A stretch of DNA of 64,000 bases, taken from an uncultured Clostridia bacterium (GTDB taxonomy: Bacteria > Bacillota > Clostridia > TANB77 > CAG-508). The notes below the pieces were generated by a model, which did not search any database, was not told where the DNA came from, and worked only from the letters and a program-made list of their open reading frames with translations. Position numbers and translations under genes: made by a program. The stretch lies in contig CAKPOI010000001.1 in the NCBI GenBank assembly GCA_934169775.1, forward strand, positions 16,558 to 80,557, written 5' to 3'. Positions 55,182-58,361 of this stretch are shown piece after piece (the first letter of the stretch is position 1; each line of letters starts with the position of its first letter).

Positions 55182-55315
55182 AGTGCTGGACGGAAACTAA
55201 TATTGTTGTTGCTGTTAGTCGTGCTATTGTTATTACGGTTAGAGGCTGGATTATTAGAGCCTGTATTGTTGTAATTGCCTCCCCTGTTGGCACAAGGATT
55301 GCTACTGTTGGAAGT
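55182..55315 (-). other. DGR template repeat (TR), 134 bp, located 68 bp downstream of the RT gene.
   Basis: 134-bp homology to 57061-57194 (VR). All 16 differences lie at TR adenines (sense strand). The TR is rich in AAC/AAT codons. Homology ends at ...AGTGCTGG. Confidence 0.85.
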
Positions 55316-55383
55316 TTTCGATTTATCCCTAATTTTCTTTTTTTGTTTATATTGTAATATTAAATTAAGTTATTTTATATTTT

Positions 55384-56169
55384 TTATTCTATGTAAAATA
55401 ATTTGTTTGTTAAATTGTATACATTTGCTATTTGTATATATCCCATATGTCCTGCTAAATATTTTTTTGCTTCTTGTTTTGTTTTTACAAATATTATGCT
55501 GTCGTCCAAATATCTTTTATAATATTTTATTTTTAACTTATGCTTTATGTATTGGTCTACTTCATTTAAATATATGTTTGCAAACATTTGTGATGTGTAA
55601 TTTCCTATTTCTAATCCTTTTGGTCTTTTCTGTGCATATATTATTTCTTCTAATAACCATATTACATCTTTGTCTTTTATTTTTCTTTTTAATATTTTTA
55701 GTAATGTTTGTTTGTCTATATTATCAAAATATTTTGATATATCCATTTTTAGTATATAATATTCTCCCCATTTAGCTTTACAGTGTTTCATTGTTTTTTG
55801 TGTGTCTAAACATGCTTTATGCATTCCTCTGTTTTTTATACATGCATATGTGGTTTTTATAAATTGTGGTACATATGCTGGTTCTAAAAATTTGTCTACT
55901 ACCCATCTGTGTACTATTCTGTCTATATATCTTGATTTTTCTATTTTTCTTACTTTTGGTTCTGTTACATAAAATTCTGTATATCCTCCATGCCTGTATG
56001 TTTTGGTTTTTAGTTTTTCTAATAGCCACATTATATATTCTTCTTGTTTTAAATTAAATTCTATTATTTCTTTTCTATAGCCTTTTCCTTTTTGTGATTC
56101 TTTATGTGCAAGCATTAGTTTTTCGTATGTTAGGTTTTCTTCATATTTGTTTCGTATCGTTTTTGGCAT
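55384..56169 (-). CDS. Diversity-generating retroelement reverse transcriptase (261 aa; short, thumb region reduced).
   Basis: RT motifs 1-5 with the DGR-specific IGNYTSQ motif 4 ([I/L/V]GxxxSQ instead of QGxxxSP) and a YLDD catalytic box. The N-terminus aligns with Bordetella bRT-like RTs. Confidence 0.8.
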   Translation of the reverse strand: MPKTIRNKYEENLTYEKLMLAHKESQKGKGYRKEIIEFNLKQEEYIMWLLEKLKTKTYRHGGYTEFYVTEPKVRKIEKSRYIDRIVHRWVVDKFLEPAYVPQFIKTTYACIKNRGMHKACLDTQKTMKHCKAKWGEYYILKMDISKYFDNIDKQTLLKILKRKIKDKDVIWLLEEIIYAQKRPKGLEIGNYTSQMFANIYLNEVDQYIKHKLKIKYYKRYLDDSIIFVKTKQEAKKYLAGHMGYIQIANVYNLTNKLFYIE

Positions 56170-56530
56170 AGTATTTTATTAGTCCTCCTAATATTTTTCC
56201 TATTTCATATATTTGCTCCATTGCTATTCTGAATTTCTTTTCATCTATCCATTGGTTCTTTTTCATTATTCTTAAATAAATTCTTTGTGTATTTAGTTCT
56301 GCATCTATATGGTTTAATGTTTCTATTATTTGACTTTTTTCTCCTTTACCTATTTTGTTTATATACATTATTTTTCTTATCATTTGATACATACTTTGTT
56401 TATATTCGTTTCCTATACTAAATTTTTCTATTCTTGGAAGTTTTATTATTACCTGTAATATGTATTCTATATATTTTTCTGCCTTTGGTATTAATTGTAG
56501 TTTATTTTCTTTTTCACTCTTTTTATCCAT
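56141..56530 (-). CDS. avd: Avd-like accessory variability determinant (129-aa basic helical-bundle protein); overlaps the RT start.
   Basis: Size, basic helical character, and its position immediately upstream of and overlapping the DGR RT. Confidence 0.55.
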   Translation of the reverse strand: MDKKSEKENKLQLIPKAEKYIEYILQVIIKLPRIEKFSIGNEYKQSMYQMIRKIMYINKIGKGEKSQIIETLNHIDAELNTQRIYLRIMKKNQWIDEKKFRIAMEQIYEIGKILGGLIKYYAKNDTKQI

Positions 56531-56779
56531 TTAATCGTTTTCCTTTTTATTGCTTCTATATTCTTTTTCTTCTAATTTTTTCATATATGTTTCTATTGAA
56601 TTTACTGGTATTCCTATTTTACATACTTCTGGTTCCATGCATAATAACTTTAACCCTAATATTTCGTTTAATTTTACTGCGTCTTTTCCTCTCGCTAAAT
56701 AAAATGCTCCTGCATTTGTCAATATTATGTATCCTTTATTTTTTTCTTGTAATAATTCTAACATTTTACTAAATCCCAT
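56531..56779 (-). CDS. Small protein resembling MutS mismatch-binding domain I (82 aa); first gene of the avd-RT operon.
   Basis: AGAFYLARGKDAVKLNEILGLKL...IGIPVNSIETYMKKL aligns with MutS domain I ([23 protein letters not shown]...AGIPYHAVENYLAKL). The mismatch-contacting Glu is replaced by Leu. Confidence 0.35.
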   Translation of the reverse strand: MGFSKMLELLQEKNKGYIILTNAGAFYLARGKDAVKLNEILGLKLLCMEPEVCKIGIPVNSIETYMKKLEEKEYRSNKKEND

Positions 56780-56843
56780 TTTCTACCTCCTGCTTTGTTT
56801 TATTTTTAAAGCTGGCGCGGTTCGTTTTTTTGCCTGAAAGCTC

Positions 56844-56880
56844 AAAAAAAACGCTACCGCCAGGTAGCGCTACCTCCAGG
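56844..56880 (-). terminator. Rho-independent terminator about 170 bp downstream of the DGR target gene.
   Basis: Minus strand reads CGCTACC-TGGC-GGTAGCG followed by T8. Confidence 0.55.
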
Positions 56881-57047
56881 TGAAAAATTGTATTTCTGGA
56901 TTTACCAAGAACAAGTTCTTGATAAATTCTGTCCTTCAATTTTCCACCTGCCTCTAGCGTATTTCATTCGCTAGAGGGTACTTATTATTCAATTTACCGG
57001 CTATAAAATGGCTCTCTCGCCTATTTTATAATCACGGGCTTTAGCTT

Positions 57048-58361
57048 TCAGTTTACATAAAGTGCTGGACGGAAACTAATATTGTAGATGCTGTAAGTCG
57101 TGCTATCGTCATTACGGCCAGAGGCTGGATAACTAGAGCCTGTATCGCTGTAACGGCCTCCCCTGTAGGCACAAGGAAGGCTACTGTTGGAAGTCTTTTC
57201 CAAGGTCCATTCCCATTCATTTCCTGCAAAATCATATATGTTCATTTTATTTGTTTCTTCTGATGCTCCTGTTGTTAATAAAACACTACTTGCTGGCTTT
57301 TCTCCTGTTATTGCTGTCCATGTACTTCCACTATTTGTTGTTTGTTTTGCTTTGTCACTGCTTATTGTTCTTTTTGCATTGCTATAATTTCCCCATGTAC
57401 TGCTATCTGCATTGATGTTGGCTGTTGTTAATGTTGATTTTACTTCTAAATATTTACATACTAAATCCCATTGGATTCCAAACATTAAACTACTTGTATA
57501 ATTACTATCTGGTGTCATTTCATTTGCTAAAGCTTGTGCTTCGCTACAATACACGTAGTTATATGGTATTGCATCCTTTTGGCTTATGGCTTTTGGTGAT
57601 GTTCCTATTGTTATTCTTGCTGATGAACTTGTTCTTGCATTTGTTGTTTCTGTTGTAGTTCCTTCTATTCCTGCTTCATATCTTCCTATCCAGAATCCTC
57701 CATAATTATATATACTTTTTAACATTTTTTGATATGCTGCTTTATATTCATCTGATGTCATTCCACAACCATTATACCATTCATCTGTCCAATTATAACC
57801 TTCTCCTGCTTTTCCTTTTCTATATACTCCTGCATATGCTATTAATTTATTTTTTATATCCGTATAATTTTGATCTGTTAATGTTCCAGTTGTATCTATT
57901 GTTAAATCTGAAAATACTGTTGTTTTTGGTACTTCTATCCATACCCATTCATTATTATTTTTATCTTTTATTACTATTCCTTTATTTGCATCTGCTTCTA
58001 TTACTGTTGAATTTGCAGGTACTGCTCCTGCTGGATTTGTATCTGATTTATTTATATTAGTAAAGTTTGAACTTGTTCCTCCTCCAGAGCCACCATTTCC
58101 TGAACCTCCACCTGTTGTTCCATCTGCATATTGGTCTATTGTACTTTCATATCCTGCTAATTTCTCTGTTTCTTCATCATTTTTTTGATTTGTTTGTTCT
58201 TTTGCTTCTGCTGCTCTTTTTAATATTCCATTATCTCCACTTAATGCTGCAATTGTTACTCCAGCAAGTATTAGAAGTACAATGATTGTGATGACAAGTG
58301 CAATTAGAGTTATACCTTTATTGCTTTTTGTTTTCATTTTTATTCTGTCTTTTATCTTCAT
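57048..58361 (-). CDS. DGR variable (target) protein: pilin-like N-terminal anchor, Gly/Ser-rich linker, FGE-sulfatase/C-type-lectin-fold domain, VR at the C-terminus.
   Basis: N-terminus KGITLIALVITIIVLLILAGVTIAALSG. FGE-type motifs (GFWIGRYEAG, AGNEWEWT, RGGRYSD). The 3' 134 bp match the TR. Confidence 0.85.
   Translation of the reverse strand: MKIKDRIKMKTKSNKGITLIALVITIIVLLILAGVTIAALSGDNGILKRAAEAKEQTNQKNDEETEKLAGYESTIDQYADGTTGGGSGNGGSGGGTSSNFTNINKSDTNPAGAVPANSTVIEADANKGIVIKDKNNNEWVWIEVPKTTVFSDLTIDTTGTLTDQNYTDIKNKLIAYAGVYRKGKAGEGYNWTDEWYNGCGMTSDEYKAAYQKMLKSIYNYGGFWIGRYEAGIEGTTTETTNARTSSSARITIGTSPKAISQKDAIPYNYVYCSEAQALANEMTPDSNYTSSLMFGIQWDLVCKYLEVKSTLTTANINADSSTWGNYSNAKRTISSDKAKQTTNSGSTWTAITGEKPASSVLLTTGASEETNKMNIYDFAGNEWEWTLEKTSNSSLPCAYRGGRYSDTGSSYPASGRNDDSTTYSIYNISFRPALYVN
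57061..57194 (-). other. DGR variable repeat (VR) within the 3' end of the target gene.
   Basis: See TR. Encodes ...SNSSLPCAYRGGRYSDTGSSYPASGRNDDSTTYSIYNISFRPAL. Confidence 0.85.

What the first reader, a model, noticed from the sequence alone, without database searches (positions are those of the whole stretch)
55182..58361. Complete diversity-generating retroelement (DGR): target with VR, MutS-I-like ORF, avd, RT, TR
All components of a DGR are present on the minus strand in the order target gene (VR at its 3' end), terminator, small ORF, avd-like, RT, TR. The RT carries the [I/V/L]GxxxSQ motif 4 that distinguishes DGR RTs from group II intron and retron RTs. A 134-bp template repeat matches the 3' end of the target gene.
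Basis: partly seen in the sequence, partly recalled or inferred. Interest (0 to 1): 0.92.

Follow-up and report, generated by a model that had tools for sequence, protein, structure and literature searches.

The report
Diversity-generating retroelement with truncated RT
This is a genuine diversity-generating retroelement of an already described type in an uncultured gut Clostridia genome, but internal deletions in its reverse transcriptase and in one helper gene mean this copy is most likely a decaying remnant rather than a working, complete system.

Summary
On the minus strand lie a target gene with a C-terminal VR, a MutS-I-like ORF (MSL), avd, an RT and a TR. All 16 mismatches in the 133-nt TR/VR core sit at TR adenines. 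The RT carries IGNYTSQ and YLDD, and a full-length paralogue matches a 328-aa PDB reverse transcriptase (8ub7, inferred to be Bordetella bRT) far better than group II or retron RTs. The modelled target C-terminus has the FGE/C-type-lectin fold of DGR variable proteins.

"Complete" does not hold. The RT is 261 aa against 336-341 aa in about 80 relatives. An in-frame 75-aa deletion between 14-nt direct repeats removes motifs 6-7 and most of the thumb. MSL is 82 aa against about 150-160 aa.

Sister strains at the same locus carry further deletions or have lost the whole MSL-to-SSB cassette while keeping a mutagenised VR.

Best reading: a known MSL-type chromosomal DGR that is inactive in cis and being lost. 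A 93%-identical intact paralogous cassette exists elsewhere, so trans-complementation is not excluded. Interest is moderate to low.

The parts
57048..58361 (-). Target (variable-protein) gene, 437 aa. It has an N-terminal pilin-like hydrophobic segment, a Gly/Ser linker and a C-terminal FGE/C-type-lectin-fold domain that carries the VR.
   Evidence: ORF. The N_methyl match is weak but present in 38/38 homologues; FGE-sulfatase is weak in 26/38. The AF2 model of residues 210-437 has pLDDT 97.6. Foldseek top hits are TaqVP 5vf4, FGE, TvpA 2y3c and Mtd 1yu0-4.
57061..57199 (-). Variable repeat (VR), the last 46 codons of the target. It ends 10 nt before the stop codon.
   Evidence: All core mismatches to the TR are at TR adenines. 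TR AAY (Asn) codons correspond to the variable residues.
56780..57047 (-). Structured, relatively G+C-rich intergenic region 3' of the VR. It holds several hairpins and a terminator-like stem-loop at 56850-56871.
   Evidence: Fold z-score -7.6; terminator-like site. RNAalifold found no family-wide consensus hairpin directly 3' of the VR.
56531..56779 (-). MSL (MutS-domain-I-like) accessory gene, truncated to 82 aa against 149-163 aa in relatives. The deletion junction is at 56557/56558.
   Evidence: Pfam MutS_I 2.9e-7, profile positions 10-79 of 113. Full-length relatives reach profile position 107. Alignment with L006/L090/L089.
56141..56530 (-). avd accessory gene, 129 aa, full length.
   Evidence: Pfam bAvd 2.9e-19. 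NCBIfam DivGenRetAVD scores 74.3 bits against a cut-off of 80. Same length as relatives.
55384..56169 (-). DGR-type reverse transcriptase, 261 aa, with an in-frame 75-aa (225-nt) internal deletion. The single remaining copy of the 14-nt repeat AAGAAGCAAAAAAA lies at 55462-55475.
   Evidence: RVT_1 match stops at profile position 170 of 205. Alignment of the full-length paralogue to 8ub7 places the lost segment over motifs 6-7 and the thumb.
55182..55320 (-). Template repeat (TR), rich in AAY codons.
   Evidence: Identical in sister strain L090 and 1 nt different in L089.
55004..55183 (-). RT-14 RNA (Rfam RF02921), starting exactly at the 3' end of the TR. It is the presumed equivalent of the Bordetella 'Sp' RNA (Avd/RT-binding and priming element).
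   Evidence: 79.4 bits against a gathering score of 48.1. Found in the same position in 14 of 16 related loci scanned. The role is inferred from PMC5737381 and bioRxiv 10.1101/2023.10.23.563531.
54728..54976 (-). Small SSB/OB-fold-like ORF (82 aa), the last gene of the cassette.
   Evidence: Present within 900 nt downstream of the RT in 70 of 77 related loci. Pfam SSB hit in 32 of 46 members, best 5e-7. Weak PDB SSB hits. Lost together with MSL-avd-RT-TR in sister strains.
54730..56806 (-). Extent of the unit (MSL to SSB-like ORF) that is cleanly absent from the same locus in sister strains L086, L087, L088, L095 and L096.
   Evidence: blastn of the window against those loci. At least two different junctions are seen.

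Best explanation
This is a chromosomal, MSL-type diversity-generating retroelement of an uncultured gut Clostridia bacterium, caught in the process of decay.

In the intact family, the inferred mechanism follows the Bordetella phage paradigm. The RT and pentameric Avd bind the structured RT-14 RNA that directly follows the TR. They cis-prime cDNA synthesis across the TR and misincorporate opposite adenines. The cDNA then replaces the VR at the 3' end of a surface-protein gene. The VR encodes the ligand-binding face of an FGE/C-type-lectin domain. MSL (a MutS domain I-like protein) and a small SSB-like protein are conserved helpers. They plausibly handle the mismatched heteroduplex and the single-stranded cDNA.

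In this copy the RT has lost 75 residues (motifs 6-7 with the primer grip, and most of the thumb) through a deletion between two 14-nt direct repeats. MSL has lost its C-terminal half. The cassette therefore most likely cannot make cDNA on its own. The 16-17 adenine-site differences between TR and VR are then a record of past mutagenic homing.

Shown: the anatomy, the adenine specificity, the deletions, the family context and cassette loss in sister strains. Inferred: the loss of catalytic activity and the roles of RT-14, MSL and the SSB-like protein.
For: DGR identity:
- TR/VR mismatches are adenine-specific.
- Across 60 related loci, 1204 of 1342 TR/VR differences are at TR adenines.
- The full-length paralogue P0246 matches the 328-aa PDB reverse transcriptase 8ub7 over its full length at 2e-38. 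The group II RT scores 6e-20 and retron RTs 2.5e-17.
- Avd and MSL are supported by Pfam hits.
- The target C-terminus has the CLec/FGE fold; top hits are TaqVP, TvpA and Mtd.

Truncation:
- Relatives are 336-341 aa; the window RT is 261 aa with a precise gap between TKQEAK and KYLAGH.
- The junction is a 14-nt repeat, with the two copies 225 nt apart in the intact paralogue.
- The same deletion is present in independent assemblies L089, L090 and P0254.
- MSL is truncated.

Decay series at the same locus:
- L089 has an additional MSL-avd deletion.
- L086, L087, L088, L095 and L096 lack the whole cassette but keep mutagenised VRs.
- The VR is essentially fixed across strains whose target otherwise differs by 4-8%.

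Why the thumb matters: in Bordetella bRT, RNA contacts around the thumb and the bRT-binding stem are required for cis-primed reverse transcription (bioRxiv 10.1101/2023.10.23.563531).
Against: - Three strains that share the 75-aa deletion (window, L089, L090) carry three different VRs. These differ at 18-22 TR-adenine positions and only 1-5 other positions. At face value this suggests diversification continued after the deletion.
- dN/dS of the truncated RT between the window and L089/L090 is 0.15-0.17, and 0.10 for the truncated MSL. This looks like purifying selection.
- Both points are weakened by evidence of recombination. All RT differences lie in nt 90-498. The segment from the RT 3' end through the TR, RT-14 and the SSB-like ORF, which contains the deletion, is nearly identical among strains (6/944 against 50/1660 differences, p = 1.7e-5). 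That segment was therefore probably shared recently among backgrounds that had already diverged.
- No activity assay or read-level data were available.
- An intact paralogous cassette exists and could act in trans.
Confidence: 0.7

Rival explanations
1. Non-autonomous but still active DGR. The locus keeps an intact TR, RT-14 RNA, Avd, VR and flanking signals. It is serviced in trans by the intact RT (and MSL) of a paralogous DGR cassette elsewhere in the same genome.
For: - An intact paralogous cassette next to secE-nusG-rplK (L091-L094) encodes a 338-aa RT that is 93% identical, a 149-aa MSL and a 129-aa Avd.
- Its RT-14 RNA is almost identical to the window's, while its TR differs.
- Many related MAGs carry two or more cassettes of this family.
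- Strains sharing the deletion have different adenine-mutagenised VRs, all templated by the window-type TR.
Against: - Co-occurrence of the two loci in one genome was not shown. There is no second RT in the 64-kb window, and the sample identifiers of the two loci did not overlap.
- The paralogous locus is itself often deleted: L003, L006 and cluster members of 264-315 aa.
- The VR is fixed across diverged window-like strains, and the whole cassette is repeatedly lost. Both argue against ongoing use.
- The recombination signal explains the different VRs without post-deletion activity.
Confidence: 0.2
2. The 261-aa protein is a functional short form. It is either a minimal polymerase or a non-catalytic Avd/RNA-binding subunit that is kept by selection, for example as a regulator or dominant-negative partner.
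For: - All internal RT deletions seen in this family are in frame. The same junction occurs in three distant clades (window, L001, L002). L007 has a different junction but removes the same region.
- dN/dS is 0.15-0.17.
- The N-terminal extension, fingers and the palm up to YLDD are retained. In bRT these contact Avd and the RNA.
Against: - Deletions between in-frame repeats of one peptide motif (KEAK...KEAK) are in frame automatically.
- The short forms are rare: 2 of the 120 best protein clusters and 1 of the 80 genome loci. Each is nested among full-length relatives.
- The region lost holds motifs 6-7 and the thumb, which template-primer binding needs (established RT biochemistry).
- The cassette goes on to decay further.
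- The low dN/dS is confined to the part of the gene outside the recently shared segment.
Confidence: 0.06
3. The short RT and MSL are assembly or sequencing artefacts in an A-rich, repetitive region, and the real element is complete.
For: The region is extremely A-rich on the coding strand, and the deletion endpoints are short repeats.
Against: - An identical RT junction occurs in independent assemblies made with different assemblers and samples: the window, the window-identical RT P0242 on 3 contigs, L089 (SPAdes-style contig name), L090 (k141 contig name) and P0254.
- L090 shares the identical MSL junction.
- A 14-nt repeat is far shorter than assembler k-mers.
Confidence: 0.02
4. It is not a DGR but a group II intron RT or a retron with a chance repeat.
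For: The NCBIfam best hit is the group II intron RT model, at 98.6 bits and far below its cut-off of 300.
Against: - The best solved relative is the 328-aa 8ub7 RT, well above group II and retron RTs.
- The GxxxSQ motif, Avd, adenine-only TR/VR differences and family-wide TR/VR pairs all point to a DGR.
- No intron RNA domains were found in the region.
Confidence: 0.01

Closest known systems
Bordetella phage BPP-1 DGR (mtd-VR, avd, TR, Sp RNA, brt)
   Same: - RT of the same clade. The full-length paralogue aligns end to end with the 328-aa PDB chain 8ub7, which I infer to be bRT.
- Avd accessory protein.
- Adenine-specific TR-to-VR transfer.
- VR at the C-terminus of a C-type-lectin-fold protein (Mtd is among the fold hits).
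- A structured RNA directly 3' of the TR.
   Different: - Chromosomal rather than phage-borne.
- Gene order is target, MSL, avd, RT, TR, RNA, so the TR lies downstream of the RT.
- Extra MSL and SSB-like genes.
- The RNA belongs to Rfam RT-14, not RT-10.
- In this copy the RT lacks motifs 6-7 and the thumb.
MSL-containing DGRs ('Architecture D') of Wu, Gingery, Zimmerly et al. 2018 (PMC5758913)
   Same: A small MutS-domain-I-like accessory gene together with avd and without HRDC, as that paper describes for its 16 MSL-containing DGRs.
   Different: - The window's MSL (82 aa) is shorter than the 112-283 aa range given there, because of a deletion.
- The paper does not mention a conserved SSB-like gene (0 occurrences of 'SSB').
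Rfam RT-14 RNA motif (RF02921; Weinberg et al. 2017, PMC5737381)
   Same: Scores above the gathering threshold here and in 14 related loci, next to an RT gene.
   Different: The paper left RT-1 to RT-19 without assigned function, except for RT-10, which it tied to the BPP-1 DGR. Here RT-14 starts at the last bases of a DGR TR, which assigns it to DGRs by position.
DGR variable proteins TaqVP (5vf4), TvpA (2y3c) and the formylglycine-generating-enzyme fold
   Same: The modelled C-terminal 228 residues match these folds, with Foldseek probability 1.0 and E 8e-6 to 3e-4. The VR covers the same C-terminal stretch...NEWEWT...RGG...FRP.
   Different: Sequence identity is only 12-16%. The N-terminal part (pilin-like hydrophobic segment, Gly/Ser linker, middle domain) is unrelated.

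Membership tests
Diversity-generating retroelement (DGR) | Reverse transcriptase of the DGR clade, with the motif 4 signature [I/V/L]GxxxSQ | tested here: met
   IGNYTSQ at residue 188. The full-length paralogue matches 8ub7 at 2e-38, against 6e-20 for the group II RT.
Diversity-generating retroelement (DGR) | TR/VR repeat pair whose differences are confined to TR adenines | tested here: met
   16 of 16 in the core and 17 of 18 overall. p about 8e-8.
Diversity-generating retroelement (DGR) | VR at the 3' end of a protein-coding target, in a C-type-lectin or Ig-type fold | tested here: met
   The VR is the last 46 codons. The model has pLDDT 97.6 and matches TaqVP, TvpA, Mtd and FGE.
Diversity-generating retroelement (DGR) | Complete RT domain (motifs 1-7 plus thumb) capable of cDNA synthesis | tested here: not met
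   A 75-aa in-frame deletion removes the segment aligned to bRT residues about 229-297. RVT_1 coverage ends at position 170 of 205. Catalytic activity itself cannot be tested with these tools.
Diversity-generating retroelement (DGR) | Structured RNA flanking the TR that recruits RT-Avd and primes synthesis | tested here: inconclusive
   RT-14 RNA abuts the TR here and in relatives. Its priming and binding role is inferred from the Bordetella structure and was not tested.
Diversity-generating retroelement (DGR) | Directional signal at the VR 3' end (IMH in the VR differing from IMH* in the TR) with a nearby hairpin | tested here: inconclusive
   A single non-adenine C/T difference at the 3' edge recurs in most family members. 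The box after the VR is conserved, but RNAalifold found no consensus hairpin.
Diversity-generating retroelement (DGR) | Ongoing VR diversification within a population | not testable with these tools
   No reads were available. Between strains, the VR is fixed in one group and different in another, but recombination confounds the timing.
MSL-type DGR (Architecture D, PMC5758913) | MutS-domain-I-like accessory gene together with avd, no HRDC gene | tested here: met
   Pfam MutS_I at 2.9e-7, above the gathering score, and bAvd. MSL is present in 64 of 71 relatives and avd in 69 of 71. The window's MSL is truncated.
Rfam RF02921 (RT-14 RNA) | Covariance-model score at or above the curated gathering score | tested here: met
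   79.4 bits against 48.1, with full model coverage 1-144 and a 37-nt insertion in one loop.
Group II intron / retron | RT reaching the family-specific model cut-off, with intron RNA domains or an msr/msd RNA | tested here: not met
   The group II model scores 98.6 bits against a cut-off of 300, and the retron model 50 against 235. No intron RNA was found in 54600-58800.

The most novel reading that the evidence does not exclude
Loss of the RT thumb region through a built-in pair of direct repeats (KEAK...KEAK, exactly 225 nt apart and conserved across the family) may act as a recurrent 'off switch' for these DGRs.

The deletion-bearing 3' segment appears to have spread by recombination through a gut Clostridia population and frozen different VR alleles. 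The truncated RT may be retained as a non-catalytic Avd/RNA-binding protein.

In addition, the SSB-like ORF would be a previously undescribed core accessory protein of this DGR clade, and RT-14 would be its Sp-type priming RNA.
Probability: 0.12. Interest if true: 0.6.

Novelty: new member of a known kind. Interest (0 to 1): 0.35.

Why it matters
DGRs are the main known targeted hypermutation systems in the gut microbiome, so a new intact element is not in itself news.

This locus adds three things.
- It gives a naturally occurring series of the same chromosomal DGR in sister strains. An intact version was seen only at a paralogous locus. At this locus the series runs from RT-deleted, through RT plus MSL or avd deleted, to cassette-free with a frozen VR. 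This shows how such elements are lost once a useful variant is fixed.
- It places the orphan Rfam motif RT-14 directly at the 3' end of a DGR template.
- It points to an SSB-like protein that is conserved in about 90% of this DGR clade. The DGR literature I could search does not discuss it.

It is also a caution for automated DGR calling, because every 'component' is present and yet the RT is not whole.

Tried and rejected
- AF2 on the full 437-aa target with a shallow alignment failed (pLDDT 36). It was replaced by the C-terminal domain with a deeper alignment.
- Sequence searches of the target against the PDB gave only Gly/Ser-linker noise and a weak pFGE hit.
- I looked for a conserved hairpin or cruciform directly 3' of the VR, as in BPP-1. 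Single-sequence folds are variable and RNAalifold predicts no consensus pairs, so I do not claim it.
- I first took L003 and L006 (RT 94% identical) to be decayed copies of this same locus. Their flanks show they belong to a paralogous locus next to secE-nusG.
- I considered that different VRs in strains sharing the deletion, together with dN/dS of about 0.15, prove post-deletion activity. I downgraded this after finding that the deletion-bearing 3' segment is almost identical between strains while the upstream part is not.
- Scans for further copies found nothing: IMG/VR and two exact-pattern scans of JGI metagenomes.
- Literature searches for 'RT-14' with DGR, for an SSB accessory gene in DGRs, and for the PDB code 8UB7 returned nothing relevant.
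- Whether the same genome also holds the intact paralogous cassette could not be determined, because the genome scan and contig look-ups were exhausted.
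Full report
**1. Observation**

The repeat is real. Window 55179-55318 and 57058-57197 match over 140 nt at 87%. On the minus strand, 17 of 18 mismatches are TR-A to VR-G/T/C. The remaining one is a C/T difference at the extreme 3' edge. In the 133-nt core, all 16 differences fall on the 48 adenines, which chance would give with p of about 8e-8. The TR reads as a string of AAY (Asn) codons exactly where the VR varies. No other VR-like copy exists in the 64 kb.

- target, 57048-58361
- a terminator-like hairpin, 56850-56871
- an 82-aa ORF with a Pfam MutS_I hit at 2.9e-7
- a 129-aa bAvd-family ORF at 2.9e-19
- an RVT_1 ORF at 1.6e-13, carrying IGNYTSQ and YLDD

**2. What it is**

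The RT belongs with DGR RTs. A full-length paralogue that is 93% identical (P0246) aligns end to end with the 328-aa PDB chain 8ub7 at 2e-38. Group II intron RT scores 6e-20 and retron RTs 2.5e-17. The file labels 8ub7 only as 'Reverse transcriptase'. I infer it is Bordetella bRT from its length and from the cryo-EM study in bioRxiv 10.1101/2023.10.23.563531.

The target's last 228 residues were modelled with a 78-sequence alignment (pLDDT 97.6). The model matches the DGR variable proteins TaqVP, TvpA and Mtd, and formylglycine-generating enzymes. The N-terminus is a pilin-like hydrophobic segment (weak N_methyl match in 38/38 homologues) that lacks the canonical Glu+5.

**3. Family context**

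About 80 related loci come from uncultured gut Clostridia MAGs, including one closed 1.57-Mb genome. None were found in IMG/VR, and phage records are below 40% identity.

The cassette is strongly conserved: target-VR, MSL (about 150-160 aa), avd, RT (336-341 aa), TR, a structured RNA, and a small OB-fold ORF.
- Across 60 loci with a detectable pair, 1204 of 1342 TR/VR differences are at TR adenines. One non-adenine difference typically sits at the 3' edge, which is the expected IMH/IMH* asymmetry.
- The RNA is Rfam RT-14 (RF02921). It scores 79.4 bits in the window and begins on the last bases of the TR. It is found in the same place in 14 of 16 loci scanned.
- Weinberg et al. left RT-14 unassigned and linked only RT-10 to the BPP-1 DGR (PMC5737381).
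- In Bordetella, the RNA just downstream of the TR binds Avd, wraps the RT thumb, binds the RT and provides the primer. I therefore read RT-14 as the equivalent element. This is an inference from position.
- The SSB-like ORF lies downstream in 70 of 77 loci. It hits Pfam SSB in 32 of 46 members.
- MSL with avd is the 'Architecture D' of Wu et al. (PMC5758913). That paper does not mention an SSB-like gene, and two further literature searches found none.

**4. This copy is not complete**

The window RT is 261 aa. Alignment shows a clean in-frame gap of 75 residues between ...TKQEAK and KYLAGH.... On the bRT alignment this corresponds to motif 6, motif 7 (GVNFCGY, the primer-grip region) and most of the thumb.

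In the intact paralogue, the two endpoints are a 14-nt direct repeat, AAGAAGCAAAAAAA, with the two copies exactly 225 nt apart. The window keeps one copy, at 55462-55475. The KEAK...KEAK pair at this spacing is conserved throughout the family. The same junction has arisen in at least two other, phylogenetically separate clades (L001, L002). A fourth clade, L007, has a different in-frame deletion of the same region.

MSL is also damaged. It is 82 aa, against 155 aa in L006 and 149 aa in L093. It ends inside the MutS-I domain.

Independent assemblies carry the identical junctions, so this is not an assembly artefact.

**5. Sister strains at the same locus (gatA-gatB ... target ... AAA-ATPase/PDDEXK)**

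- L090 has the same RT and MSL deletions.
- L089 has the same RT deletion plus a different deletion running from mid-MSL into avd.
- L086, L087, L088, L095 and L096 lack the whole MSL-to-SSB unit (window 54730-56806). At least two different junctions are seen. All still carry adenine-mutagenised VRs.
- Window-like strains whose target differs by 4-8% elsewhere share one VR with a single change. Other strains have quite different VRs.

A paralogous cassette next to secE-nusG-rplK is intact in L091-L094. In other contigs it also carries several different deletions, all starting in the RT 3' third. These are L003, L006, and cluster members of 264, 289, 302 and 315 aa, one of which is an RT-SSB fusion. 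The RT 3' third is therefore a deletion-prone zone in this lineage.

**6. Is it still active?**

Two results argue for activity.
- The window, L089 and L090 share the deletion and the TR, yet differ at 18-22 TR-adenine positions of the VR.
- dN/dS of the truncated RT is 0.15-0.17.

However, all RT differences lie in nt 90-498. The stretch from RT nt 499 through the TR, RT-14 and the SSB-like ORF is almost identical among the three (6/944 against 50/1660 differences upstream, p = 1.7e-5). MSL and avd show mosaic patterns as well.

The simplest reading is that the deletion-bearing segment was exchanged recently among strains whose VRs and RT 5' parts had already diverged. Neither result then requires post-deletion activity. 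I cannot exclude trans-complementation by the intact paralogue, whose RT-14 RNA is nearly identical. No second RT lies in this window, and the rest of the genome could not be examined.

**7. Verdict**

This is a real DGR of a known kind (MSL type, Avd-dependent, CLec target). It is not complete: the RT and MSL are internally deleted, and the locus sits on a documented path to total loss.

Its value lies in three things: the decay series, the placement of RT-14 at a DGR template, and the conserved SSB-like accessory ORF. It is not a new type of system.

Noticed in passing
window 54728-54976 (-); related loci L001-L085: A small SSB/OB-fold-like ORF (80-90 aa) follows the TR/RT-14 RNA in 70 of 77 related DGR cassettes. 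It is deleted together with the cassette in sister strains. I found no description of such a DGR accessory gene in the searchable literature.
   Followed up: partly
window 55004-55183 (-): The Rfam RT-14 RNA, published without an assigned function, starts exactly at the 3' end of the DGR template repeat here and in 14 related loci. Relative to the model, this lineage has a 37-nt insertion in one hairpin loop.
   Followed up: partly
L036:1589-3451: In one related MAG, the DGR RT gene is interrupted at about codon 225 by a ~1.9-kb insertion with Rfam group II intron hits (D1-D4 and the catalytic domain).
   Followed up: no
L091-L094, L003, L006 (paralogous locus next to secE-nusG-rplK): A second cassette 90-93% identical to the window's exists at another chromosomal site. 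It is intact in some contigs. In others it carries at least four different deletions, all starting in the RT thumb-coding region; one fuses the RT in frame to the SSB-like ORF.
   Followed up: partly
window about 58882 (between the 148-aa ORF at 58917-59363 and the target gene): Sister strains L086-L089 have a ~490-nt segment here encoding a DUF3990 protein (150 aa). It is absent from the window and from L090.
   Followed up: no
window 56807-56830 (-), just upstream of the MSL start: The sequence ...CCGCGCCAGCTTTAAAAATAA resembles the VR 3' ends (...CCGYCCAGCTTTAT...) of related cassettes. It sits at the left junction of the cassette deletions seen in sister strains, so it may be a vestigial VR-end or homing signal.
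   Followed up: no
window 56780-57047 (-): The intergenic region after the VR is unusually G+C-rich for this 27% G+C genome. It folds far better than shuffled sequence (z = -7.6), with a ~70-nt imperfect long hairpin. The region is also the most variable between the otherwise near-identical strains L089 and L090.
   Followed up: partly
window 52951-54627 (-): The gene immediately downstream of the cassette encodes a 558-aa protein with a predicted AAA-ATPase_like domain and a PD-(D/E)XK (PDDEXK_9) domain. It is retained in all sister strains, including those without the cassette.
   Followed up: no
whole window: Base composition is strongly strand-asymmetric: T 47% and A 26% on the + strand, G+C 27%. 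The long ORFs in the 10-kb stretch examined (52000-62000) are nearly all on the minus strand. No tRNA genes were found in the 64 kb.
   Followed up: no
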